From the sequence record OL960581: a stretch of DNA of 64,000 nt; one strand, written 5' to 3'. Origin of the DNA: Escherichia phage vB_EcoM_SA20RB. A program made the translations under genes and the position numbers. The notes below the pieces were generated by a model that was given only the letters and a program-made list of their open reading frames with translations, was not told where the DNA came from and ran no database searches. Shown piece by piece: positions 3,852 to 64,000 of this stretch. Within the stretch, counting starts at the first letter, position 1. Each line of letters starts with the position of its first letter.

Positions 3852-4517
3852 TTAAAATTTCATTTTTCGACCTTTAAACCATCCTTCTGGAATTGGGTCA
3901 GTTTTCTTAATACGTTTAGAAACTTTTTCATCTAATGAATGAATCCACATCATACCAAATTGGGAATTCTTTTCACCCTGTTGATGTTTATTTCTGGCGT
4001 GAGATTCTTTCATTTTATTAATAGTTTCAGGAGTATGGGTCTTACCCAAGAAAGATTTAGTATTTAAAAATTTCTCTCTATACTTAGGATTATCCCAAAG
4101 CTGTTTAAACCTTTCTGAACCCATTTTACGATATTTTTCTTTAAGGTCTGGGTCGTTCTCAAATCTGGTTTTAAAAGCAGCAGCCCCTTTTAAGGAAGCT
4201 TCTTTCTTTTTATCCAAATATTCTTTAGTGTTTAAATGGTCCCAACCACCTTCACCACCTAATTTCAAATTATAAACATCAAGGCGCTTTAAAAACTCTT
4301 CAGTCACAATATTCTTTTCTGACTCAAACATAGAGGTTTTATCGTCAAAGAACTCTAATATTTCTTTAGAGAAATTTTCTATACCATACTTGTCTTGGGC
4401 TCTTTTTAATAATTTACCAGAACCCATATATCCATCATCTAAATTTTCGGTAGAATGAGCGCCTATATAGATTTTATTATTAATTTTATTTGTTATTTTA
4501 TAAGTGTAATGGAACAT
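3852..4517 (-). CDS. segB: GIY-YIG homing endonuclease embedded in tRNA operon
   Basis: 221 aa; N-terminal KIYIGAHST...YMGSG GIY-YIG-type motif; sits between tRNA-Arg and the 7-tRNA subcluster as segB does in T4. Confidence 0.8.
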   Translation of the reverse strand: MFHYTYKITNKINNKIYIGAHSTENLDDGYMGSGKLLKRAQDKYGIENFSKEILEFFDDKTSMFESEKNIVTEEFLKRLDVYNLKLGGEGGWDHLNTKEYLDKKKEASLKGAAAFKTRFENDPDLKEKYRKMGSERFKQLWDNPKYREKFLNTKSFLGKTHTPETINKMKESHARNKHQQGEKNSQFGMMWIHSLDEKVSKRIKKTDPIPEGWFKGRKMKF

Positions 4518-54032: not shown

Positions 54033-54067
54033 ACTATAACACAACATGAGGGACTTGTAAACTACAT
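54033..54067 (-). promoter_or_regulatory. sigma70-type early promoter (-35 TTTACA 54061..54056, -10 TATAGT 54038..54033)
   Basis: Minus: gtagTTTACAagtccctcatgttgtgtTATAGT, 17-bp spacer. Confidence 0.55.
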
Positions 54068-56119
54068 CTTGAACTTTTTAGACATTCCGTTGATGTTAAC
54101 CAAAGAAGCTAAGATTTGAGAAACTTCGTTTTCCTCTTCTTTTGATTCTTCTACAAGGAATTGGTTAAATCCAGTCATTGGACGAACTTCACCAGTTTCC
54201 ATCAGATGATCGCCATCATATACCGATTCTTCTAATTGTTCAGAAGGAGGAACGATTGTGCCTTCGATTAGATACTTGTTATAAGCAGTTTCTTTCATCA
54301 TGTACGTGCTTACTTTATTAATCTTCAACAAAATTCCACGCGGTAAAATAACTTCAGCTTCTGATGGAAATCCTGATAAATGACCTGGAACGATAACTTT
54401 AATTCGCTCAGCTCCTTTTATTACCATACCTACGCTAGTTTCAGCATCTTCATTAGCATATGCAGAATGACTACCCATATGCATTAAATCTTCAGCATCA
54501 ACGGAACCTTCTCCTTCACCAGAAAATACTGCACCGGAATCATCTAGAGCCATATAGTTTTTACCATGCTCACCGAAGATATTTGGTTTAAGCGATGTTG
54601 ATACGAAGTTCTTGAAATAGAACATTTTATTTTCAATATTATGACGTAAAGTTTTAAAGGTAACTTCTTGTCCACGGTAAAGTGTAGTTCCTGGAGGAAG
54701 AACTGATCCTTTGGCAAAGGCAGAATCCATTGTCTCGATGTGTTTAATAGCTCGTTCCATGTATTCTTCACGGGTAGAATCTGGTTTACCCAAGAGGAAC
54801 GAGTTCATTTCAACATATGAATCTGCACAATAATCTTCAATTACATCAGACTCAGCCTGAGTCAGTCCTTTTGGAGTTACTTCGGTGCTTGCGTATTCAT
54901 ATGCCTGAGCAGCAGATTCATTAATCAATTTATAAATGCTATTCATGACAAATTGAATAATAGCTACTTTTTCGTCTGGCGTGGCTTTAGAACCTTTAAC
55001 TAAATCATTGATAATTTTCTTAATAACATCAAAGCTATTAGAAATATTAATGTCAGCGAGATCGCTTAAAATTTTATCAGTTTTATAATCAAAAAATTCT
55101 TTATTCTTTAAATATTCTTTAGAACCTTGATATGTTATATCGCTCTGCAGCTTGATAGATGGATCACGTAAACGTGCATGGGCCAATGCAATATGATTTC
55201 GGAAGCTTTCTAGTTCATAATCGTTAGATTTAAAACGAGAAGCACTTCTCATACCACCGATAGCTCCTTTGCCGAAGTTTGAACCAATCTGAATAACACC
55301 AGAGTTCATTGGTCCTTCTGCTTTATATACCGGAACTTTAGATTCAAACTCTTGATATTTCTTGGCAGCGAAGCTATCACCCTGAAGTGAAGCATCGACA
55401 GTAGAATATTGAGCTTGTGCTGCTAATCGACGACTAATTTTAGTTTTCTGAATAACAGCTTGATCCGTGCGCTTATCATTTTCTAAAGCAATAGAAGCAG
55501 CAACAGCAACAGCTTTAGGAACAGCATTACCTGTTTTAACATCTACATAAACATCACCAACCTTTGATTCAACTTTTGTGAATAACTCAGTTGAAATAGG
55601 AGGTACACCTGGAATGTCTTCTAAATTGGCATTTTTACGGTAAACCATAATATATGCATACTTTTTATCATAATCCCAAATTTCCTTTAAAAGAACATAT
55701 CGACCTGCTCCTTTAGTACGTACTAAACGGTCAGCAATAACTTGCATTTGACGAGCAGCGCCATTTGTTTTACTTTTTAGTACGCGGAATAGGCATGCGT
55801 CAATTTTATACTGTTTCATTGTTTGAAGAGCAGTATCAAAAACCGCATTAATGACACCAATTGGATTTCCACCCAAGTTTTTAAGTTTAACGAGCGATAG
55901 TTTCTCATTGACACCTATCATTACGATATGCATCATTTTATCGCCTGGCTTAACGTTTTTATTTGTATCACCGCCAGAGGTGTATGTACAAAATCTAAAT
56001 CCAGGAAGCACACTTTCTTCGCCGGCTTGAATAGCAAAAATTTGAGGTATTTTATGCTTAGGATTTAAGTTAACAACCGGCGCCGAAGCGCCGTCAAATA
56101 ATTCTGTAATAAGTTCCAT
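54062..56119 (-). CDS. alt: Alt-like ADP-ribosyltransferase, copy A (685 aa)
   Basis: Closest in length to T4 Alt; C-terminal ...FKNFVSTSL... and ...EAEVILPRG... fit the R-S-ExE ART signature. Confidence 0.8.
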   Translation of the reverse strand: MELITELFDGASAPVVNLNPKHKIPQIFAIQAGEESVLPGFRFCTYTSGGDTNKNVKPGDKMMHIVMIGVNEKLSLVKLKNLGGNPIGVINAVFDTALQTMKQYKIDACLFRVLKSKTNGAARQMQVIADRLVRTKGAGRYVLLKEIWDYDKKYAYIMVYRKNANLEDIPGVPPISTELFTKVESKVGDVYVDVKTGNAVPKAVAVAASIALENDKRTDQAVIQKTKISRRLAAQAQYSTVDASLQGDSFAAKKYQEFESKVPVYKAEGPMNSGVIQIGSNFGKGAIGGMRSASRFKSNDYELESFRNHIALAHARLRDPSIKLQSDITYQGSKEYLKNKEFFDYKTDKILSDLADINISNSFDVIKKIINDLVKGSKATPDEKVAIIQFVMNSIYKLINESAAQAYEYASTEVTPKGLTQAESDVIEDYCADSYVEMNSFLLGKPDSTREEYMERAIKHIETMDSAFAKGSVLPPGTTLYRGQEVTFKTLRHNIENKMFYFKNFVSTSLKPNIFGEHGKNYMALDDSGAVFSGEGEGSVDAEDLMHMGSHSAYANEDAETSVGMVIKGAERIKVIVPGHLSGFPSEAEVILPRGILLKINKVSTYMMKETAYNKYLIEGTIVPPSEQLEESVYDGDHLMETGEVRPMTGFNQFLVEESKEEENEVSQILASLVNINGMSKKFKM

Positions 56120-56122
56120 GAT

Positions 56123-58219
56123 TTATCCTTGAACGAACTTGTAAGGCATGTTTGCAATATCTATGCAAGATGCAATAATTCCAAGAGATGATTCTACTTT
56201 TTGTTTAACATTTGATGAAACAAATGATGCAAAGTCAACTCTGTCTTCTATTTCAATATCACCTGTCATTGCAACTACTTCACCAGTTTCCATTAGACGG
56301 TCACCGTCATAAATTACTGATTCGGTGAGTTCTTCCGTAGTCATAACTTCAGCTTGAATGAGTTTTGTATTATTAGATGTTGTTCCGTCATTATTAGAAG
56401 CATCAGTTATTTTATTAACTTTGACCATCAATCCGCGTGGTAGAATTACTTCAGCTTCTGTTGCTATTCCTAGACTTCCTGGATATACAACATTAACTTT
56501 ATGAGCTCCATCAATTGCCCATCCTATTTGAACTTTAACGTATTCAGGATTTTCTTTATACGCTCTTATTTCGTTTGGATTAATAGTTATTCCTTCTTCA
56601 TTTTTATCAACTGTCAATTCATTACGAGCTTCTGGTTCTAAAAGACCAATACCAGCATGTGTAATTCCAAAACGTCCAAAAATGATAGGAGTTAAAGAAG
56701 TAGATACAAAATTTCTGAAATAGAACACTTTATTTTTAACTAGTGCTTCGTATATAGGAGCAGTCATGCTTTGAGCACGATAAACTGTAATGCCTTCTGG
56801 TATACGATCACCATTTTCAAAAGCTGAATCTAAGTTATTTATAGCAGATTCAATTTCTTTTTCACTCATTACATCATATCGTTCTGGATTGTAACGACCC
56901 AAAAGAAGATTATTGATGTCAGTATATCCTGAACCACAATACTCTCTAATGCCGCGCTTTTGTGATGGAGTATATTTAGAACCATCACGGGCAATAGTAA
57001 TATCAATCATTGGACCTGCACCAATTCCAGAAAAGCTATAAATCATTCTTTTAAGGAATTTAGTTTTTGCTGCGTTCCAGGAATTTTTAGTTATTTCTTC
57101 CCAGACTTCATCTGGCTGCCCTTTACGAGTTTTATTATGTTTATCAAGCCAATTATCTTTATATTCTTCAAAGAATTGATTAACAGCTGCTGCGTATTTC
57201 TCTAAACATTTTATTGAAGTAGTTGGTTCATTTTTAATCGCATTAAGAATTACATCTTTAATTTTTTCAGAAACTTCATTAACCTCACTTTTTGAAAAGA
57301 ATTTATAATCATAGTGAAGTTCATTTGCAGTTCCTTCAGCAATAATTTTTGCTGTCTTTGTTTTAGAAGCTAATGAATTAATTCCAAGCTTCATTTCTTC
57401 TGCTTCGGGAATTAAAGGAGCGGTAGCAGGTTTATTGAAATTAGCTGCGGTAGATTCATACTTCTGGAATAATTCACTTTCAAATCTAGAAGATTCTAAT
57501 GATTGACTTTGCGCAATTGCTCTACGGGAAATTTTAACTTTAACGATTACAGCTTGGTCAGAACGTTTATCATTTTCTTGCGCAATAGATGCAGCAATTG
57601 CCTCATTTTTAGTTACTTGAGCTCCAGTATCTTTATTGATATAAACATCACCAACCTTCGATTCAACTTTAGTAAAGAGCTCGGTACTAATTTCCGGAAC
57701 TCCTGGAATGTCTTCTAGTGATACATTTTTGCGATGTATAAGAATATATGCATACTTTTTATCGTAATCCCAAAGTTCCTTAAGAAGGACGTATCTGCCG
57801 CCTGAGCGACTACGGATAAGTCTATCAGCAATAAGTTGAATTTGACGAGCTTGACCAGCAGTTTTAGACTTAAGAATACGGAGCATGCAGGCATCAATTT
57901 TATACTGACGCATCGTCTGCATCGCAACAGTAAAAACTGAATTGATGTAATTAATTGGGCTTGGACCGAGACCTTTTAATTTAGCAATTGAACCTTTAGC
58001 AGTTAATGTAAAAGGAACAATATGCATCATTTTATCGCCCATTTTTAAATCGCGATTAGTATCACCTCCAGATGTATAGGTACATAAACGAAAGCCTGGT
58101 TGTTCAATTGCGTCATCAACATGAACTGAAAAAATTTGCGGTATTTTCTTCTTTGGATTTAAGTTTGTAATCGGAAGAGTAGTATCTTCGTCAAATAATT
58201 CTGTAATGAGTTCCATCAT
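56123..58219 (-). CDS. Alt-like ADP-ribosyltransferase, copy B (698 aa)
   Basis: Paralog of copy A (conserved N-terminal ~230 aa and C-terminal STS / EAE motifs, divergent middle); late promoter upstream. Confidence 0.75.
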   Translation of the reverse strand: MMELITELFDEDTTLPITNLNPKKKIPQIFSVHVDDAIEQPGFRLCTYTSGGDTNRDLKMGDKMMHIVPFTLTAKGSIAKLKGLGPSPINYINSVFTVAMQTMRQYKIDACMLRILKSKTAGQARQIQLIADRLIRSRSGGRYVLLKELWDYDKKYAYILIHRKNVSLEDIPGVPEISTELFTKVESKVGDVYINKDTGAQVTKNEAIAASIAQENDKRSDQAVIVKVKISRRAIAQSQSLESSRFESELFQKYESTAANFNKPATAPLIPEAEEMKLGINSLASKTKTAKIIAEGTANELHYDYKFFSKSEVNEVSEKIKDVILNAIKNEPTTSIKCLEKYAAAVNQFFEEYKDNWLDKHNKTRKGQPDEVWEEITKNSWNAAKTKFLKRMIYSFSGIGAGPMIDITIARDGSKYTPSQKRGIREYCGSGYTDINNLLLGRYNPERYDVMSEKEIESAINNLDSAFENGDRIPEGITVYRAQSMTAPIYEALVKNKVFYFRNFVSTSLTPIIFGRFGITHAGIGLLEPEARNELTVDKNEEGITINPNEIRAYKENPEYVKVQIGWAIDGAHKVNVVYPGSLGIATEAEVILPRGLMVKVNKITDASNNDGTTSNNTKLIQAEVMTTEELTESVIYDGDRLMETGEVVAMTGDIEIEDRVDFASFVSSNVKQKVESSLGIIASCIDIANMPYKFVQG

Positions 58220-58239
58220 ATCCTCTCTAGTGTTTATTC

Positions 58240-58247
58240 TATTTATA
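58240..58247 (-). promoter_or_regulatory. late promoter TATAAATA for the alt pair
   Basis: Plus tatttata 21 nt upstream of ATG 58219; preceded by a hairpin. Confidence 0.6.
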
Positions 58248-58252
58248 AAATT

Positions 58253-58270
58253 AAAGGCCCGAAGGCCTTT
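58253..58270 (-). terminator. AAAGGCC-UUCG-GGCCUUU hairpin
   Basis: C(UUCG)G hairpin overlapping stop of 58269..58457. Confidence 0.45.
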
Positions 58271-58457
58271 AATAATCTATTGGTAAGAGAGTACGATATA
58301 TTTCAAACTTTGGACCTTTTTCGTAGGCATCAAATGTTTCTGTAAATTTATTATAAGCATATGCATCTATAAATTCAATCATAATTTGTGATACAGAAGT
58401 AGAAACATCTCCACCTTCTTTTTGAGCAACGACAATTGTTTCTAAGTAAGCTTTCAT
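58269..58457 (-). CDS. hypothetical protein (62 aa)
   Basis: ATGA overlap with gene 30 stop. Confidence 0.55.
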   Translation of the reverse strand: MKAYLETIVVAQKEGGDVSTSVSQIMIEFIDAYAYNKFTETFDAYEKGPKFEIYRTLLPIDY

Positions 58458-59917
58458 AGACCAGTTACCTCATGAAAATCACCAAATACATCCTCGAATG
58501 TATTAGCTTTAGTTTTATCTTCACGTAAACGAATCGCAATCGGAAGAAATAATTTAACGTAATCAGTGCGGCCATCAGATTTTAGCCAACCGTTGCATTC
58601 GCACTCTAGAATTTTTCCAATATAATAATTTTGGTTTTCCATAATGCGAGTACGGTCAAGTTCATGTGATTTTACACCGGCTTTATCTTTTAAGCCTGAA
58701 CCAGCATTTACTTTAATTTTTCCACACTCTGATTCAAGAATAAATCCACCTGCTTTAGTAGGGTCTTTACGGTGAGGATAAATTCCTACAATTTTTAAAT
58801 CAACATCAATTACTTCTTTAAATTTATAGAGATTTTTTGAACGAGCATTTTCCCACAATCCATCGGTATTTTTGAGAATAATACCTTCAAGACCTTGGTC
58901 AATATATTTTTTATAAATTACCTTAGCTTCATCTAGGTTATTTACTACCTGGTTTTCAATTAAAATTACTTTATCATATCCTGATGTCATTTGTTCTAGT
59001 TTAGAAAAACGTACATCATATTTTAAACGAAACGCCGGAAGACCGTATATTTCTACCAACGGGACATAATCCCAGACCTGAAACTTCATGCATTTGGCTT
59101 CTTTTTCGGAAATGGTTCCTTTTAAGGATTTATTGGCGATTCCATTAGAAGTAGTACGAGATTCCGCTACTTCGGCGAATTCTTTAGCTTTACTAATTTC
59201 AGGATAAGCATCAAAAAGAAAATCTAGGCCTTCTGGTTCCTTTTTAACTTGCTCATGGTATACCAATTCGCCATCAATTAACACACCTTCTGGATGAATC
59301 TGGCGGGCTTCAGCAGTCATTTTGATTAACTCTTCCTTAAGAAGATCTAATCCTAGATATTCATTACCAGCTCGTGATAAAAGACGAACATCATCTAATT
59401 CATCACCTCGAACTTCAGCAAAACACCGAGCTCCATCTGCTTTTAGCTGTGCAAAAGCTGGAAACTTGATATTCTTACTAATGCCTTTTTCATCATAAGA
59501 ACTTGCCAGCATTTGAGGTTGTTCAGGAATTAAACCTGGCCAAACTTTGTTTGCAATAGATACTGAAGCACCGCATTCAAGGTCTCGCATCATAACTCGA
59601 CGCAAAACTTCAACATCATCCTTTTTACCATCAGTGATATATCCAGTTAATTCCTCAATTGCAGCATTTCCAGTCAATTTCCGAGTAGCTAACGTGAATT
59701 CAATGAAGTCAAGCATATCGGTAATAGTCAGCATTCCAAAACTCTGGGTAGCAATACCAGGTTTAGGCCATTTCTTTATATAATACTGTAACCCACGAGA
59801 ATAAGTCAGACGATATACCCGTTTAAGCAATTCATTATCTTTATTCTTTTCAAGAATTGCTTGCTTCTGCTTAGTTGATCCAATAGATGCTATTTCATTC
59901 AGAATTTTAAGAATCAT
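58454..59917 (-). CDS. 30: ATP-dependent DNA ligase
   Basis: 487 aa; adenylation motif KADGARC; N-terminus MILKILNEIASIGSTKQKQAILEKNKDNELLKRVYRLTYSRGLQYYIKKW matches T4 ligase as I recall it. Confidence 0.92.
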   Translation of the reverse strand: MILKILNEIASIGSTKQKQAILEKNKDNELLKRVYRLTYSRGLQYYIKKWPKPGIATQSFGMLTITDMLDFIEFTLATRKLTGNAAIEELTGYITDGKKDDVEVLRRVMMRDLECGASVSIANKVWPGLIPEQPQMLASSYDEKGISKNIKFPAFAQLKADGARCFAEVRGDELDDVRLLSRAGNEYLGLDLLKEELIKMTAEARQIHPEGVLIDGELVYHEQVKKEPEGLDFLFDAYPEISKAKEFAEVAESRTTSNGIANKSLKGTISEKEAKCMKFQVWDYVPLVEIYGLPAFRLKYDVRFSKLEQMTSGYDKVILIENQVVNNLDEAKVIYKKYIDQGLEGIILKNTDGLWENARSKNLYKFKEVIDVDLKIVGIYPHRKDPTKAGGFILESECGKIKVNAGSGLKDKAGVKSHELDRTRIMENQNYYIGKILECECNGWLKSDGRTDYVKLFLPIAIRLREDKTKANTFEDVFGDFHEVTGL

Positions 59918-60183
59918 TGTTCATCCTTCAGAGTTTGATTTACAGCTCTATTATAAATCAATTCATCATTAAGCTCAGGCAAAGACTTATGATATGTAGT
60001 TCTAACTTTATTTCCTTGCATCCAGTGCTTGACATAAATGAAACCTTGCTCTACACATTTTTTAAAAATTCGTTCGTCTTTTTGAGCTCGGAATTCTGGA
60101 TTGCATCTAAAAAATTGATTTACGTGACCGTAATCACGTGTAGTATTACCTTCATTTTCATAAATAGTGTGAACGACAAACAT
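59914..60183 (-). CDS. 30.1: hypothetical protein 30.1
   Basis: 89 aa; ATGA overlaps. Confidence 0.6.
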   Translation of the reverse strand: MFVVHTIYENEGNTTRDYGHVNQFFRCNPEFRAQKDERIFKKCVEQGFIYVKHWMQGNKVRTTYHKSLPELNDELIYNRAVNQTLKDEQ

Positions 60184-61046
60184 TAGAATGCTCCTTGGAA
60201 AATATTATCACCACTAGTAAATCTATTAAAATACCCTGCATCGCCAGGCTTGGTATAACTCCACGTATGGAATGGATTCATATGATATGGGTGTGTATAA
60301 TATGGATTATATGGATGTGTATAATATGGATTATACGGATTAAATCCAGGAGTTCTCCAGGTAGTGTTCCAACGAAAAGAATCGTTTTTAACCATCTTCT
60401 CAATTACATCTTTTATAGCTTTTTCACTATCAAAACTTTCTTTATTTTCCTTTGGTGAAAAAAGCTTATTTTCTATATCATTCCATGTATAAACTCGCTG
60501 TGCAGTTTTTGGAATTTTATCACGCTCTCCTCGAGCCATCCAATAAACCGGAACATTTAATATTTCACTCGCATGGTCGCAGTGGTGAGCGAGATCGTCA
60601 ATATAACAAATTACGTTATATTTCTCTTTTGCCTTTTTGAATAACTCTTCTTTTGAAGAATCATGACCACACATCATTACTTCTGAGAAGGCACCAGGAA
60701 AAAGAGCATTCAAATTAAATTGACGATTCAACAGAGCGTCAATAGAATCACCCAATGCTGTAACAGCTACAAAATTATAATCTTCTTTTAATTTGTTAAT
60801 TACACACAGGGCATCTTTATACGGAGACAAATAACGAATAAAATCTGAACGATTGTATTTTTCAATTAACTTGACACCAAGTTCTTCATCACAATTAAAG
60901 AGTTTACCTGGAGAAATAAATTTCTCATCTTGGATCATTTTTAAAATATGTTCTAACGGAAGATTATATTTCTGAGCAAAATAAGGAAGGCCTGATTGCC
61001 AGCTTAAACATACTCCATCAATATCAGTCAAAATAGTTGGCTTCAT
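60183..61046 (-). CDS. 30.2: HAD-superfamily hydrolase-like protein 30.2 with Pro/Tyr-rich repeat
   Basis: 287 aa; motif I ILTDIDGV, motif IV YIDD; C-terminal NPYNPYYTHPYNPYYTHPY. Confidence 0.65.
   Translation of the reverse strand: MKPTILTDIDGVCLSWQSGLPYFAQKYNLPLEHILKMIQDEKFISPGKLFNCDEELGVKLIEKYNRSDFIRYLSPYKDALCVINKLKEDYNFVAVTALGDSIDALLNRQFNLNALFPGAFSEVMMCGHDSSKEELFKKAKEKYNVICYIDDLAHHCDHASEILNVPVYWMARGERDKIPKTAQRVYTWNDIENKLFSPKENKESFDSEKAIKDVIEKMVKNDSFRWNTTWRTPGFNPYNPYYTHPYNPYYTHPYHMNPFHTWSYTKPGDAGYFNRFTSGDNIFQGAF
60293..60340. repeat. 2 x 24-bp tandem repeat inside 30.2
   Basis: gtgtataatatggattata[t/c]ggat twice; encodes the PYNPYYTH repeat on the minus strand. Confidence 0.7.
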
Positions 61047-61507
61047 AGAGAGTCTCTTAATAGGTTTAACACATCAATAAATTCAGCTTCGGTTAGTATT
61101 GTATCATCTTTTGTTAGACCACTAGCCATGCTATGCTTCAAAACTTTTCCTTTCGAGGCTTGTAATGCATTGCGAAATCCCTTGTTTTGGATCGCTGCTT
61201 CAAAATATGCATTTGTGTATAATTCTTTCCATGCTTCGGAATATCTTGAAAACGGAGTTCCAAGCCAGAACAACGTGCCACGGTCCTGAGCTCTTGCATA
61301 AGACCTTCCAGCTTGTTGGGCGGCAAGCCCGGATAACCCAAATATACGACGCTGTTGTTCAACATTTTTCACCTTGCACCCTTGGAGGAATCCTTCAAGA
61401 CCTCCAAATTGAATACCATCCATAACGAAAGGCCATTTGGCGAAATTACTTAATGCACATGATGGCCACCTAAAATTGCTTCTAATCTCTAACTCAGACA
61501 TTTTCAA
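61043..61507 (-). CDS. 30.3: NADAR/YbiA-like domain protein 30.3
   Basis: 154 aa; ALSNFAKWPFVMDGIQFGGLEGFLQGCK resembles the NADAR core (SNF...F..DG..F.S.E..FQ..K). Confidence 0.55.
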   Translation of the reverse strand: MKMSELEIRSNFRWPSCALSNFAKWPFVMDGIQFGGLEGFLQGCKVKNVEQQRRIFGLSGLAAQQAGRSYARAQDRGTLFWLGTPFSRYSEAWKELYTNAYFEAAIQNKGFRNALQASKGKVLKHSMASGLTKDDTILTEAEFIDVLNLLRDSL

Positions 61508-61700
61508 TGCTTATAATTTCAACATCAGCCCAATGACCATAGCAAGGAAGACGAAATTCAACTGGCCAGTTAGGGTCCTTTTCTAATATAATAGACTTAA
61601 CTTGTGGTTCTTCATGTTCATCTGTATACGGATTTTTATCTGTTACTTTATATGTGACCTTAATGTACTGAATTCCAAAAATCTTATTAATTATATTCAT
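61494..61700 (-). CDS. 30.4: hypothetical protein 30.4
   Basis: 68 aa; overlapping gene array. Confidence 0.55.
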   Translation of the reverse strand: MNIINKIFGIQYIKVTYKVTDKNPYTDEHEEPQVKSIILEKDPNWPVEFRLPCYGHWADVEIISIENV

Positions 61701-61894
61701 ACTAATTCCTTTAATCCATAGATAGGAGATAATTCATCACCCATACGAAGGTCTTCATTTCCATCTACCCAGGAAACAATATAAGCATCTTTTACTTGAA
61801 CATCTCCCAATTTAAATGCAGGTAAAACCTTAGAAATTAATCCAGGTATACCAATTCCCTTTAATTCAACAGTTTGACCTAAAAAGAATTTCAT
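61697..61894 (-). CDS. 30.5: hypothetical protein 30.5
   Basis: 65 aa. Confidence 0.55.
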   Translation of the reverse strand: MKFFLGQTVELKGIGIPGLISKVLPAFKLGDVQVKDAYIVSWVDGNEDLRMGDELSPIYGLKELV

Positions 61895-62181
61895 TAGAAC
61901 CTCATCTGAAAACCATGCGATTTAACATTACCACCACCAATATCAGAGATATTAATTTCGCGCGCAATTGAAGGGTCAATGTCAATTTCGCGATTGAGTT
62001 TAGTGATAGCTAAAGTATCACGCCCATTTACAGTACGGAACTCTAAAGGGCAGACTACATTAACGTAGTTTTTAATTGATTCACTGGTAGGTTGCAAATG
62101 AGCAGGAAGGTCTTTAGGTGCCTTAGAGAAAACCACTTCACAGAAATTTTTGCGGGTATCAAAATAAGTAGTCATAAACAT
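61894..62181 (-). CDS. 30.6: hypothetical protein 30.6
   Basis: 95 aa. Confidence 0.55.
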   Translation of the reverse strand: MFMTTYFDTRKNFCEVVFSKAPKDLPAHLQPTSESIKNYVNVVCPLEFRTVNGRDTLAITKLNREIDIDPSIAREINISDIGGGNVKSHGFQMRF

Positions 62182-62198
62182 AGTATTTTCCTCAGTAA

Positions 62199-62212
62199 GG
62201 GGCCGAAGCCCC
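62199..62212 (-). terminator. GGGGC-UUCG-GCCCC hairpin after 30.7
   Basis: Plus ggggccgaagcccc followed by T-rich tract; 12 nt after stop of 62224..62589. Confidence 0.45.
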
Positions 62213-62223
62213 TCATTTTTATT

Positions 62224-62589
62224 TTAAATATCAAATTCGTTAAGAACTACATCAAAGATCGCTTCAAGATGCTCAGGTTTAGCTCTGTTACTCAGAATAT
62301 GACGAATCCAAGTTTTAACCAGAAGCTTACGATTGACGCCATTCCAGCAAGGATGAGTACCTAAATCGCGTTGACGGAAATCATCATCTAATGCGATTTT
62401 AAAAGAAGAACCTTCTTTCGTGATTGAAACCGTGATGCCATTTTCAAATCGCATATAAACGTAGTTAGGAGTCATATACTGTTCAATTTCGCATACTGAT
62501 CCATTTTGATGTTTCCAAAGGCAGATAGTATCAATAGAACCTGCAATACCATTAGAAACATATTTACGTTCAAAGTTGATGTAGTTCAT
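62224..62589 (-). CDS. 30.7: hypothetical protein 30.7
   Basis: 121 aa. Confidence 0.6.
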   Translation of the reverse strand: MNYINFERKYVSNGIAGSIDTICLWKHQNGSVCEIEQYMTPNYVYMRFENGITVSITKEGSSFKIALDDDFRQRDLGTHPCWNGVNRKLLVKTWIRHILSNRAKPEHLEAIFDVVLNEFDI

Positions 62590-62657
62590 TTTTATTCTCC
62601 GAGATGTTTAATTGCGGTACAGGTATATAATATCATATCCTGTACCAAAGTAAACAA

Positions 62658-62990
62658 TTATTTTACTACTTTCCAATGTTGCATGTCAAGTTTACCAACT
62701 TTTTTCATCTTCTCAATTAAGCGTTCGGCACGTTGGCGGGCTGTAACATAATACCATTCACCCAATTCATTTTGTTCAATTTTTCCAACGATTACTGTAT
62801 TCAATTCATAAATCCAACCAGTAAAGAAATTATGAACTTGAATTGTAAAGGTGAAATCTGTTCCCATACCTTCTGTTGTTTCTACTTCAATAATATCACC
62901 TTCAACTGCCATTAAGAACCACATAGTTTCATCATATTTACCATTGAAGCATTTAGTTTTAACTGTAGCGTTCAGATTAATCGTTTTCAT
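62658..62990 (-). CDS. 30.8: hypothetical protein 30.8
   Basis: 110 aa; GGAGAATAAAATG RBS; early promoter upstream. Confidence 0.6.
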   Translation of the reverse strand: MKTINLNATVKTKCFNGKYDETMWFLMAVEGDIIEVETTEGMGTDFTFTIQVHNFFTGWIYELNTVIVGKIEQNELGEWYYVTARQRAERLIEKMKKVGKLDMQHWKVVK

Positions 62991-63017
62991 TTTATTCTCC
63001 TTTGTTTGTGTAAGATA

Positions 63018-63052
63018 ATACTATCACAAAGGAACTATACTGTAAACAACTT
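63018..63052 (-). promoter_or_regulatory. sigma70-type early promoter (-35 TTTACA 63046..63041, -10 TAGTAT 63023..63018)
   Basis: Minus: gcataaagTTGTTTACAgtatagttcctttgtgaTAGTAT. Confidence 0.6.
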
Positions 63053-63071
63053 TATGCAATCTTTGGAAAAT

Positions 63072-63095
63072 AAAAAAGGACTCCCGAAGGAGTCC
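63072..63095 (-). terminator. rho-independent terminator after 30.9
   Basis: GGACUCC-UUCG-GGAGUCC followed by UUUUUU on the minus transcript. Confidence 0.6.
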
Positions 63096-63100
63096 TCAAC

Positions 63101-63277
63101 TTATGCTTTCTGCTTACCAAAACGAGAAGCATCATCTCGAAGAACCGCACGTGCTCGGCGCATGATCTTCTCAACAGTTTGATTGATACGAGAGTTCGAC
63201 CCACGCTTGTAACCAGCGCGTTTAGAATCACCAACTTTCTTTTCAACTGCTTTCTTTGCTTTAGCTTGTTTTGCCAT
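63101..63277 (-). CDS. 30.9: small basic protein 30.9 (58 aa from ATG 63277; ORF extends to 63319)
   Basis: MAKQAKAKKAVEKK... Lys/Arg-rich; start chosen at the internal ATG, so the N-terminus is uncertain. Confidence 0.55.
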   Translation of the reverse strand: MAKQAKAKKAVEKKVGDSKRAGYKRGSNSRINQTVEKIMRRARAVLRDDASRFGKQKA

Positions 63278-63471
63278 TATAAATTCTCTTTTAAATGAAA
63301 ATGCAGGACTTATTGGCATTGCCTGCGAAAGCCCTCAAGGGGTACTTAGGTTTTGAATATTTACCGACAGGATAACCATAAACCTCGTCAACATTCAAGA
63401 GGTACACCGTAAAACAAAGTTCGACGGCTCCTCGTTTTAACTTCACACTAAGGCAGTGACTCTCCAATAAA

Positions 63472-63720
63472 TTACTTCAGTGTTACCACAAAGTGACGAA
63501 CTGCTTTTCGTGCAGCAGAAGCCAGAGGCTTAGCATACTTAAGTTCATCTTTTTCCTGAAGCTCAGCGGCTAATGCAGTTTGAGCAGGATTCAGATGTTT
63601 GAAATAACGCAGGATTTCAAGAGCTTCGGCTTCAACATCAATAGATGCGCCATAGTTTTCGTGACCATTATTCCATGCGTTTCGTTGCAGTTCAAGAGCG
63701 TGTTGTAATTGTTTAATCAT
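63472..63720 (-). CDS. rIII: lysis-inhibition accessory protein rIII
   Basis: 82 aa; position between 30.x genes and gene 31. Confidence 0.75.
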   Translation of the reverse strand: MIKQLQHALELQRNAWNNGHENYGASIDVEAEALEILRYFKHLNPAQTALAAELQEKDELKYAKPLASAARKAVRHFVVTLK

Positions 63721-63867
63721 TTAAAAATTCTCGTTAGAGATTAAAACTCGGTAGTCACGTTCTTCTGAATTTCATCTTCTTTCGACAGATCTCTCAGTTG
63801 TAGACTACCACATAGAATTGTTCGGTTAACTTATTATTCCGACACCCAATTCATATTATTATTTATA

Positions 63868-64000
63868 TCACTTATAAAGACACGGAATAGCTTTATAGTG
63901 ACAGGTTACGAATTTTTGTTTAATTTCTTTTGGCTGCTTAAGACCCAGAGCTACAAAAGGATGAGGAACGTTTCGAATTTGACCAACTGGAAGAGAAGTC
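63868..64000 (-). CDS. 31: co-chaperonin gp31 (GroES-like), C-terminal 43 codons (5' end beyond window)
   Basis: Minus frame reads ...[43 protein letters not shown]-stop. Confidence 0.75.

What the first reader, a model, noticed from the sequence alone, without database searches (positions are those of the whole stretch)
60183..61507. HAD-like hydrolase and NADAR-like protein encoded directly downstream of DNA ligase
30.2 carries HAD motifs (DIDGV, YIDD) typical of nucleotide phosphatases plus an unusual Pro/Tyr repeat tail; 30.3 has the SNF...DG...E..FQ..K pattern of YbiA/NADAR domains, a family linked to ADP-ribose/NAD-derivative processing and reversal of nucleic-acid ADP-ribosylation. This phage also encodes two Alt ADP-ribosyltransferases. 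A ligase-associated nucleotide/ADP-ribose processing module could protect phage DNA from ADP-ribosylating host defences or recycle the phage's own ART products.
Basis: inference. Interest (0 to 1): 0.5.

Follow-up and report, generated by a model that had tools for sequence, protein, structure and literature searches.

The report
T4 genes 30.2 (phosphatase) and 30.3 (AdfN)
These are the T4-type phage genes 30.3, the already characterised AdfN enzyme that strips ADP-ribose off phage DNA to defeat the bacterial DarTG1 defence, and 30.2, an uncharacterised nucleotide-phosphatase-like enzyme; the two happen to be neighbours here but do not appear to work together.

Summary
The window is a Tequatrovirus (T4-like phage), and the two minus-strand ORFs are orthologues of T4 30.2 (93% identical) and 30.3 (97%).

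**gp30.3** is a NADAR protein. It matches Pfam Phage_30_3, its family profile hits E. coli YbiA, and its model matches only the three solved NADAR structures. Glu36, Lys43 and His123 are intact. This gene is already published as AdfN, a guanine-ADP-ribose DNA glycohydrolase that counters DarTG1.

**gp30.2** matches no Pfam or NCBIfam model, but it is a HAD phosphatase. All four HAD motifs are conserved, and the model is confident over residues 1-195. The top structural hits are 5'(3')-deoxyribonucleotidases, and 45 of 124 remote relatives hit Pfam NT5C. Its Pro/Tyr tail is disordered and poorly conserved.

**The proposed joint "module" is not supported.**
- Across 28 gp30.2 lineages, the NADAR gene is adjacent in only 7.
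- The ligase gene lies directly downstream in 23.
- In published T4 transposon data, 30.3 insertions are lost under DarTG1 (log2FC -7.25). 30.2 insertions are unaffected (-0.12), and 30.2 is non-essential.

The substrate and role of gp30.2 remain unknown. The best guess is a (deoxy)nucleoside-monophosphate phosphatase.

The parts
61043..61501 (-). Gene 30.3 = adfN: NADAR-family DNA (guanine) ADP-ribosylglycohydrolase, 152 aa from the ATG at 61501.
   Evidence: Pfam PF08010 Phage_30_3, E 1.4e-68. 97% identical to T4 gp30.3, with Glu36, Lys43, His123 and the full C-terminal helix. Family profile hits YbiA 2b3w at E 2.4e-4. The AF2 model (pLDDT 81.5) matches only the three solved NADAR structures. 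The function of the T4 orthologue is shown experimentally in PMC11825919.
60366..61046 (-). Gene 30.2, catalytic part (about residues 1-227): HAD-superfamily phosphatase with a helical C1 cap (about residues 12-90), plus one extra C-terminal helix (207-220). It is NT5C / 5'(3')-deoxyribonucleotidase-like.
60183..60365 (-). Gene 30.2, C-terminal tail (about residues 228-287): predicted disordered, rich in Pro/Tyr/Trp/Asn, ending in GDNIFQGAF. It contains the duplicated NPYYTHPY unit.
   Evidence: pLDDT is below 50 over most of residues 228-287. A 24-bp tandem repeat of 2.3 copies lies at 60285-60340. T4 has one copy and a partly different tail, while the catalytic part is nearly identical. Tails across the family are absent or 40-130 aa long and of several types with short conserved C-terminal motifs.
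59914..60183 (-). Gene 30.1 (DUF3045), lying between 30.2 and ligase. Its start overlaps the 30.2 stop (TAATG).
   Evidence: Pfam PF11243, E 5.6e-63; sequence read. By phmmer it is detected in only 3 of 28 gp30.2 lineages.
58454..59917 (-). Gene 30, ATP-dependent DNA ligase. It is the conserved downstream neighbour of 30.2.
   Evidence: Pfam DNA_ligase_A_M, E 3e-32. A ligase lies on the same strand within 1.6 kb downstream of 30.2 in 73 of 78 loci and 23 of 28 lineages.
61494..61700 (-). Gene 30.4 (68 aa), immediately upstream of adfN. Its end overlaps the adfN start by 8 nt (ATGTCTGA).
   Evidence: phrog_2042; T4 annotation. In T4, insertions in 30.4 are mildly depleted under DarTG1 (log2FC -1.79, adjusted p 0.014), most simply a polar effect on adfN.

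Best explanation
The region holds two unrelated enzymes that belong to one chain of overlapping early genes (30.4 > 30.3 > 30.2 > 30.1 > 30) but act independently.

(1) gp30.3 is AdfN, an orphan NADAR glycohydrolase. When the host toxin DarT1 ADP-ribosylates guanines in phage DNA and blocks replication, AdfN cleaves the N-glycosidic bond, releases ADP-ribose and restores the base. It uses Glu36, Lys43 and the phage-specific His123. This is shown for the 97%-identical T4 protein and inferred here by orthology.

(2) gp30.2 is a Mg2+-dependent HAD phosphatase of the 5'(3')-deoxyribonucleotidase (NT5C) type.
- Asp8 is the nucleophile that forms an aspartyl-phosphate.
- Asp10 is the general acid/base.
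- Thr96 and Lys132 hold the phosphate.
- Asp150 and Asp151 hold the metal.
- The helical cap closes over a small substrate, with Trp16, Phe43 and Tyr64 in the positions of the base-stacking aromatics of cdN.

Its most likely substrate is a (deoxy)nucleoside monophosphate, so it would trim or balance the nucleotide pool during phage DNA synthesis. The fold and catalytic motifs are shown. The substrate class and the biological role are inferred. The disordered tail, with its short C-terminal motif, probably tethers the enzyme to a partner protein; this too is inferred. The conserved position just upstream of DNA ligase suggests co-expression with the replication and repair machinery rather than with the NADAR enzyme.
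For: gp30.3:
- PF08010, E 1.4e-68.
- A 41%-identical homologue also hits PF08719 NADAR at 9.5e-6.
- Family profile against YbiA, E 2.4e-4, aligning SNFA...DG...E...Q..K.
- The Foldseek hits with probability above 0.9 are exactly YbiA, PnNADAR and G. lovleyi NADAR.
- E, K and H are invariant across the family.
- 97% identical to T4.
- Published genetics and biochemistry exist for T4 AdfN.

gp30.2:
- D8, D10, R108 and K132 are invariant, and V12, W16, N111 and D151 are at least 90% conserved, in 124 relatives.
- T96, D150 and D151 are at least 90% conserved in 38 closer relatives.
- The model is confident.
- 2jao is the top PDB sequence hit for the profile.
- The profile search finds 1398 relatives; of 124 sampled, 45 hit NT5C (best E 4.2e-10), 22 hit Hydrolase and 19 hit HAD_2.
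- hhalign bridge to an NT5C-scoring relative: prob 99.1%.
- A phage NT5C-family enzyme with a proven dNMP substrate exists: PBS1 Dtm, a dTMP phosphatase (PMC12697855).

Independence of the two genes.
Against: - gp30.2 itself reaches no Pfam, NCBIfam or PDB sequence threshold.
- No phenotype is known. 30.2 is non-essential in T4, and insertions are neutral in M9 versus LB and under DarTG1.
- A phage that works hard to make dNTPs has no obvious need for a dNMP phosphatase.
- The tight linkage to ligase is not explained by a pool-balancing role.
- AdfN works fully only in T-even infections for unknown reasons, so some partner protein exists. Only a role in DarTG1 counter-defence in T4 is excluded for gp30.2.
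Confidence: 0.7

Rival explanations
1. gp30.2 is a ligase helper. It would be a DNA-end or ligation-related phosphatase, for example removing 3'-phosphates that block nick sealing, or hydrolysing the AMP released by ligase, and it would be recruited to ligase or the replisome through its tail.
For: A ligase lies directly downstream of 30.2 in 23 of 28 lineages, while every other neighbour varies. The cistrons overlap. There are weak similarities to the phosphatase part of polynucleotide kinase: phrog_415 at E 0.0018, and 1 of 124 relatives hits HAD_PNKP. The tail looks like a docking peptide.
Against: HAD phosphatases that act on nucleic-acid ends, such as the PNKP and T4 PseT phosphatase domains, lack a cap (established knowledge of the family, from memory). 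gp30.2 has a full C1 cap of about 80 residues, which typically restricts the site to small molecules. Ligase is essential in T4 but 30.2 is fully dispensable (72 of 72 sites hit). T4 already has the PseT 3'-phosphatase. Synteny in T4-like genomes can persist without any functional coupling.
Confidence: 0.13
2. This is the first reader's idea: gp30.2 and gp30.3 form one ADP-ribose processing module. The NADAR enzyme would release ADP-ribose from DNA, and the HAD enzyme would then dephosphorylate ADP-ribose-derived products (for example ribose-5-phosphate or AMP), or would be the unknown T-even factor that AdfN needs.
For: The stop and start codons overlap (ATGA) in this phage and in T4. The two genes are adjacent in Tequatrovirus and in several other genera (7 of 28 lineages). 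At genome level they have almost the same distribution across phage genera (1456 versus 1510 records). AdfN reaches full activity only in T-even infections.
Against: In T4, 30.2 insertions are neutral under DarTG1 (log2FC -0.12, p 0.61) while 30.3 insertions are lost. The NADAR gene is absent within 10 kb of 30.2 in 17 of 28 lineages. In Karamvirus it lies 57 kb away without any phosphatase beside it. Purified AdfN alone removes ADP-ribose from DNA in vitro. The matching genus-level distributions are expected for any two widespread Straboviridae genes.
Confidence: 0.05
3. gp30.2 is a counter-defence enzyme. It would destroy a phosphorylated small molecule made by a host immune system, such as a nucleotide-derived signal or a toxic or modified nucleotide. 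That would explain why it is dispensable in laboratory K-12.
For: It sits in a stretch rich in host-manipulation and anti-defence genes (two alt paralogues, adfN). It is non-essential in K-12. The variable tail and wide spread in Straboviridae fit an accessory function.
Against: The text of the T4 transposon screens reports no 30.2 phenotype: it is not named among the hits in two clinical isolates, and the text search found no mention of 30.2 at all. Only the DarTG1 and M9 tables were read directly for 30.2. There is no PADLOC or other defence-related similarity. The catalytic core is highly conserved and syntenic, more like a housekeeping phage enzyme than an arms-race gene.
Confidence: 0.1

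Closest known systems
AdfN (phage T4 gp30.3), anti-DarT factor NADAR (Johannesman et al., Nat Commun 2025, PMC11825919)
   Same: Direct orthologue: 97% identity over all 152 residues, the same gene order and overlaps, Glu36, Lys43 and His123, and the C-terminal helix that the defective RB69 allele lacks.
   Different: Five substitutions (Q22K, V82T, P89E, D111N, I125M, written T4 to window), none at a catalytic position. Activity was not tested for this allele.
Cellular NADARs: DarG1 antitoxin (G. lovleyi, 8bat), Phytophthora NADAR (8bau), E. coli YbiA (2b3w); Pfam PF08719
   Same: The same alpha+beta fold, the same conserved Glu and Lys, and guanine-ADP-ribose hydrolysis.
   Different: It is an orphan with no DarT partner. 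The last-strand catalytic residue is His, not Asp (DarG1 type) or Glu (YbiA type). It has its own Pfam family, PF08010, and the window protein does not reach PF08719. T4 AdfN cannot replace DarG1 in uninfected cells.
5'(3')-deoxyribonucleotidases, Pfam NT5C PF06941 (mammalian cdN/mdN; S. epidermidis 3bwv; phage PBS1 dTMP phosphatase Dtm, PMC12697855)
   Same: HAD core with a small helical C1 cap. Motif I is DxDGV, with an aromatic residue eight positions after the nucleophile. Motifs II-IV have similar spacing. These are the best structural and sequence matches of gp30.2.
   Different: - About 17-20% identity, below the Pfam threshold for the window protein.
- A family-specific LNRxFNL motif (invariant R108; N111 at least 90% conserved).
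- An extra helix and a 60-residue disordered tail.
- Substrate unknown.
- Conserved position next to a DNA ligase gene.
T4 PseT (polynucleotide kinase/3'-phosphatase), HAD phosphatase domain
   Same: A phage-encoded DxDxT-type HAD phosphatase associated with a ligase pathway. There is a weak profile similarity (phrog_415, E 0.0018).
   Different: The PseT phosphatase domain has no cap and acts on nucleic-acid 3' ends (from memory). gp30.2 has a C1 cap and resembles small-molecule nucleotidases far more closely.

Membership tests
NADAR superfamily / Phage_30_3 (PF08010) | Significant match to the family profile | tested here: met
   PF08010, E 1.4e-68, 229 bits against a cut-off of 36. The link to PF08719 goes through homologue P0021 (9.5e-6, below the gathering score) and through the family profile against YbiA (E 2.4e-4).
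NADAR superfamily / Phage_30_3 (PF08010) | NADAR alpha+beta fold | tested here: met
   The AF2 model (pLDDT 81.5, pTM 0.80) matches 2b3w (E 1.6e-4), 8bau and 8bat. Nothing else has probability above 0.03.
NADAR superfamily / Phage_30_3 (PF08010) | Catalytic Glu and Lys, plus the phage-type His in the last strand | tested here: met
   Glu36, Lys43 and His123 are present and invariant in the family alignment. Their roles are taken from PMC11825919 and PMC11125620.
AdfN (anti-DarTG1 factor) | Removes guanine-linked ADP-ribose from DNA and rescues the phage from DarTG1 | not testable with these tools
   Shown for the 97%-identical T4 protein and inferred here by orthology. The full-length C-terminus, which the weak RB69 allele lacks, is present.
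HAD superfamily | Four catalytic motifs: I DxDx(T/V), II S/T, III K, IV DD/ED | tested here: met
   D8-I-D10-G-V, T96, K132 and D150-D151. D8, D10 and K132 are invariant and D151 is at least 90% conserved in 124 relatives. T96 and D150 are at least 90% conserved in 38.
HAD superfamily | Rossmann-like HAD core fold with a cap insertion | tested here: met
HAD superfamily | Direct match of the protein itself to a curated HAD profile | tested here: not met
   No Pfam family at E <= 1, no NCBIfam family at E <= 10, and no PDB sequence hit better than E 1.6. Only family profiles and relatives make the link.
NT5C / 5'(3')-deoxyribonucleotidase family (PF06941) | Profile match at the gathering score | tested here: inconclusive
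   The window protein has no hit. 45 of 124 relatives hit at E < 0.01, best 4.2e-10. One relative, P0250, passes the cut-off (25.5 against 24.8 bits) and aligns to the gp30.2 profile with probability 99.1%.
NT5C / 5'(3')-deoxyribonucleotidase family (PF06941) | Closest structures are deoxyribonucleotidases | tested here: met
NT5C / 5'(3')-deoxyribonucleotidase family (PF06941) | Aromatic residues of the cap that sandwich the base | tested here: inconclusive
   In the HMM alignment to 2jao, W16, F43 and Y64 fall on F, F and Y of cdN and are invariant or nearly so in the family. That those cdN residues stack on the base is recalled from the literature and was not checked here.
NT5C / 5'(3')-deoxyribonucleotidase family (PF06941) | Mg2+-dependent hydrolysis of (d)NMPs | not testable with these tools
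   No biochemical data on gp30.2 were found; a search for 'gp30.2' returned no papers.
   Adjacent in 7 of 28 lineages and within 10 kb in 11 of 28, against ligase downstream in 23 of 28. The two genes are 57 kb apart in Karamvirus.
   Published T4 HIDEN-SEQ data, control versus DarTG1: 30.3 log2FC -7.25 (adjusted p 0); 30.2 log2FC -0.12 (adjusted p 1).

The most novel reading that the evidence does not exclude
gp30.2 defines a Straboviridae-wide, Pfam-less branch of the deoxyribonucleotidase family that is functionally coupled to the phage DNA ligase or replisome. Its rapidly evolving disordered tail would carry a docking peptide that brings a nucleotide phosphatase to sites of DNA synthesis or nick sealing. 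There it might clear AMP or non-canonical or unmodified dNMPs, or act on an as yet unknown phosphorylated intermediate. That would be a new accessory activity of the T4 replication and repair apparatus.
Probability: 0.15. Interest if true: 0.55.

Novelty: new member of a known kind. Interest (0 to 1): 0.25.

Why it matters
For 30.3 there is nothing new. It is an intact allele of a published anti-defence gene, so this phage is predicted to resist DarTG1. That is useful for annotation and for choosing therapeutic phages.

For 30.2 the value is modest but real. A gene present in about 1,450 sequenced phages, and annotated 'hypothetical' in most of the records listed, can be called an NT5C-like HAD phosphatase with named catalytic residues. 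Its one stable genomic partner is the DNA ligase gene, not the NADAR gene. This turns a vague 'module' idea into two separate, testable questions: what is the substrate, and why the link to ligase. It also removes gp30.2 from the list of candidates for the unknown T-even factor that AdfN needs, at least for DarTG1.

Tried and rejected
- Direct profile searches of gp30.2 found nothing usable: Pfam at E <= 1, NCBIfam at E <= 10, PADLOC, and phmmer against PDB sequences. PHROGs gave only phrog_420, 'unknown function'.
- A literature search for 'gp30.2' returned no papers. A search for '30.2' + T4 + HAD returned only noise.
- A search for the cdN base-stacking residues (Phe18/Phe44/Tyr65) found no relevant paper, so that point rests on memory.
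- I looked for informative domain fusions among long relatives (P0170, P0231, P0124, P0162). Pfam finds no second domain in them. P0162 has a ParB-like 'NGRHR' string and P0170 a 'GDLDII' string, but these are unverified and were not used.
- The promoter/terminator scan of 58000-64000 gave no more sites than shuffled sequence (21 against 22.6 expected), so no operon boundaries are claimed from it.
- I considered gp30.2 as the missing T-even co-factor of AdfN. I rejected this for DarTG1 on the T4 transposon data.
- I considered that the ORF tail might be a separate gene or a frame artefact. I rejected this: the frame is continuous, and T4 has the same tail with a conserved C-terminus, GDNIFQGAF.
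- The last HIDEN-SEQ tables (clinical isolates, Mokosh) were not read row by row. The text search found no mention of 30.2 and the passages on those screens name other genes as hits.
Full report
**What is there.** The window region 58.4-62.2 kb carries a run of minus-strand ORFs. Megablast of 59900-61720 matches 675 phage records, nearly all Tequatrovirus and relatives. The best is 98.8% identical (Shigella phage vb_GEC_SH_GT).

The T4 reference record shows the same order: alt, alt.1, 30 (DNA ligase), 30.1, 30.2, 30.3 (with the internal out-of-frame 30.3'), 30.4, 30.5, 30.6. The finding's two ORFs are therefore T4 genes 30.2 (window 60183-61046, 287 aa) and 30.3.

- The 30.3 ORF is listed from a TTG at 61507. 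T4's protein has 152 aa, and the ATG at 61501 reproduces T4's 8-nt overlap with 30.4.
- The cistrons overlap or abut: ATGA between 30.3 and 30.2, TAATG between 30.2 and 30.1, and ATGA between 30.1 and 30 (read).
- In the direction of transcription both genes lie upstream of ligase, not downstream.

**gp30.3.**
- Pfam gives PF08010 (Phage_30_3) at E 1.4e-68.
- A 41%-identical homologue also hits PF08719 (NADAR) at 9.5e-6.
- A ten-sequence family profile hits E. coli YbiA (2b3w) at E 2.4e-4, aligning the SNFA...DG...E...Q..K block.
- The AlphaFold model (pLDDT 81.5, pTM 0.80) matches YbiA, the Phytophthora NADAR-ADP-ribose complex and the Geobacter lovleyi DarG1-type NADAR, and nothing else credible.

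The literature settles the function.
- Johannesman et al. (PMC11825919) mapped DarTG1 resistance of T-even phages to gene 30.3 and renamed it adfN.
- They showed that purified AdfN removes ADP-ribose from DarT1-modified DNA.
- E36A and K43A variants, and a C-terminal truncation like the RB69 allele, are impaired.
- Earlier work showed guanine-specific de-ADP-ribosylation by the T4 protein in vitro and noted the phage-specific catalytic His (PMC11125620).
- T4 transposon sequencing confirmed that 30.3 becomes essential only under DarTG1.

The window protein is 97% identical to T4 AdfN and full length, with Glu36, Lys43 and His123. This part of the finding is correct and already known.

**gp30.2.** The protein itself hits nothing in Pfam (E <= 1), NCBIfam (E <= 10), PADLOC or PDB sequences. 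PHROGs files it under an 'unknown function' family. Family-level evidence is nevertheless clear.

- One hundred homologues share a core of about 200 residues.
- In 38 of them, D8, D10, G11 and K132 are invariant, and T96, D150 and D151 are nearly so.
- In 124 more remote relatives, D8, D10, R108 and K132 stay invariant, and V12, W16, N111 and D151 are at least 90% conserved.
- These are the four HAD motifs: I DxDGV, II T, III K, IV DD.
- The model is confident for residues 1-195 (pLDDT above 90). It has a helical insert right after motif I (a C1 cap), one extra helix at 207-220, and a disordered tail from about residue 228.
- In Foldseek against the PDB, mouse cytosolic 5'(3')-deoxyribonucleotidase comes first (2jao, E 2.6e-8) and all top 50 hits are HAD-fold proteins.
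- The family profile's best PDB sequence hit is again 2jao (E 0.048). That alignment places W16, F43 and Y64 on aromatic residues of cdN.
- A profile search of 1.84 billion representatives finds 1398 relatives. Of 124 sampled, 45 hit Pfam NT5C (best 4.2e-10), 22 hit Hydrolase and 19 hit HAD_2.
- One relative that passes the NT5C gathering score aligns to the gp30.2 profile with 99.1% probability over 195 columns.

I conclude that gp30.2 is a divergent member of the deoxyribonucleotidase branch of HAD phosphatases. A characterised phage enzyme of this family exists: PBS1 Dtm, a dTMP phosphatase (PMC12697855). The substrate of gp30.2 has not been determined. A few GenBank records already call the homologue 'putative phosphatase', '5' nucleotidase' or '5'-3' deoxyribonucleotidase'.

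**The tail.** Residues 228-287 are predicted disordered. This phage carries a 24-bp tandem duplication (60285-60340, 2.3 copies) that doubles NPYYTHPY relative to T4. Almost all differences from T4 lie in the tail, while the last nine residues (GDNIFQGAF) are identical. Across the family, tails are absent in about 40% of members. Otherwise they are 40-130 residues long, rich in Pro, Trp, Tyr and Asn, and of several types, each ending in a short conserved motif such as GIEYLNRQPT, LRAYY or LLNKVxANDS. This looks like a linker plus a docking peptide, but no partner is known.

**Are the two genes a module?** Both genes are widespread in Straboviridae (1456 and 1510 phage records by tblastn), but they are not linked.

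- In 78 viral loci containing a gp30.2 homologue with 10-kb flanks, a NADAR gene is directly adjacent in 22, lies 0.1-1.2 kb away in 16, and is absent in 40 (the tally also counts the T4 reference locus among the adjacent cases and two loci cut by contig ends among the absent ones).
- Collapsed to 28 lineages (70% identity), adjacency holds in 7, and presence within 10 kb in 11.
- In a Karamvirus, the NADAR gene lies in the tRNA cluster 57 kb from 30.2, with no phosphatase nearby.
- By contrast, a DNA ligase gene lies on the same strand just downstream of 30.2 in 73 of 78 loci and 23 of 28 lineages. One of the five exceptions is cut by a contig end.
- The most distant homologues without a ligase neighbour still sit among replication genes or hit NT5C.

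Functionally, published T4 transposon data (bioRxiv 10.1101/2025.11.20.689424, Extended Data Table 6) show:

| Gene | Reference library | Control vs DarTG1 | LB vs M9 |
|---|---|---|---|
| 30.2 | non-essential (72 of 72 sites hit) | log2FC -0.12, adjusted p 1 | log2FC -0.10 |
| 30.3 | non-essential | log2FC -7.25, adjusted p 0 | log2FC 0.12 |
| 30 (ligase) | essential | - | - |

Purified AdfN also works alone in vitro. The 'ligase-associated ADP-ribose processing module' is therefore not supported. What is conserved is a 30.2-ligase gene pair whose meaning is unknown and could be plain synteny.

**Mechanism and confidence.** AdfN is shown for T4 and inferred here: it hydrolyses the guanine-N-ribose bond of DarT1 adducts on phage DNA. 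For gp30.2 the fold and motifs are shown, and the chemistry follows from established HAD enzymology. Asp8 attacks the phosphate ester to form an aspartyl-phosphate. Asp10 protonates the leaving group and activates water. Thr96 and Lys132 bind the phosphate. Asp150 and Asp151 bind Mg2+. The cap encloses a small substrate.

My estimates are:
- gp30.2 is a HAD phosphatase: about 0.9.
- Its substrate is a nucleoside monophosphate: about 0.55.
- It acts independently of AdfN: about 0.75-0.8.

The rivals are a ligase-end helper, a partner of AdfN, and an anti-defence signal hydrolase. They are listed with their tests.

**Verdict.** The NADAR gene is already characterised. The HAD gene is a new, uncharacterised member of a known enzyme family with an unexplained link to ligase. 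Interest is low to moderate.

Noticed in passing
window 60285-60340: A 24-bp tandem repeat of 2.3 copies inside the 30.2 tail duplicates the peptide NPYYTHPY relative to T4. Tail length evidently changes by repeat slippage even within the genus.
   Followed up: partly
window 61138-61365 (minus strand): A 75-aa ATG ORF in another frame inside 30.3 corresponds to T4's annotated gene 30.3' ('internal translation in a different reading frame'). It is conserved as an open frame here. No evidence for or against expression was sought.
   Followed up: no
window 61494-61700 (gene 30.4): In published T4 transposon data, 30.4 insertions are mildly but significantly depleted under DarTG1 (log2FC -1.79, adjusted p 0.014). 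The likely cause is a polar effect on the overlapping adfN, but a real contribution of gp30.4 is not excluded.
   Followed up: no
window 54062-56119 and 56123-58219 (minus strand): There are two tandem Alt-like ADP-ribosyltransferase paralogues (685 and 698 aa, 41% identical), where T4 has one alt. A recent preprint links T4 Alt to evasion of type I Mokosh and reports that the Alt variants of T4 and Bas37 are not interchangeable, so the duplication may widen anti-defence range.
   Followed up: partly
window 62198-62213: A perfect GC-rich hairpin lies in the 30.7-30.6 intergenic gap. On the transcribed (minus) strand it reads GGGGC-UUCG-GCCCC, a UUCG tetraloop stem without a following U-run. 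It looks like an mRNA-stabilising or processing hairpin rather than a terminator.
   Followed up: no
gp30.2 homologues P0023-P0122: The C-terminal tails fall into several unrelated types, each with its own short conserved end motif (GIEYLNRQPT; LRAYY/LRATF; LLNKVxANDS; ALLGMASLPIITG). About 40% of homologues have no tail. This suggests lineage-specific docking peptides.
   Followed up: partly
P0098 (Acinetobacter phage AB1I1M-1): A 216-aa gp30.2 homologue is named 'DNA ligase' in its NCBI record. This is probably an annotation slip caused by the adjacent ligase gene.
   Followed up: no
P0162 and P0170: Two long relatives fuse the gp30.2-like domain to other sequence: a C-terminal part with a ParB-like 'NGRHR' string (P0162) and an N-terminal part of about 380 aa with a 'GDLDII' string (P0170). 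Pfam finds no domain there, so these are unverified leads to function.
   Followed up: partly
L080 (Enterobacter phage vB_VIPECLUMC02), locus 4001-4450: In Karamvirus the NADAR (adfN-like) gene is embedded in the phage tRNA gene cluster instead of the ligase region. This shows the gene moves as a single cassette.
   Followed up: partly
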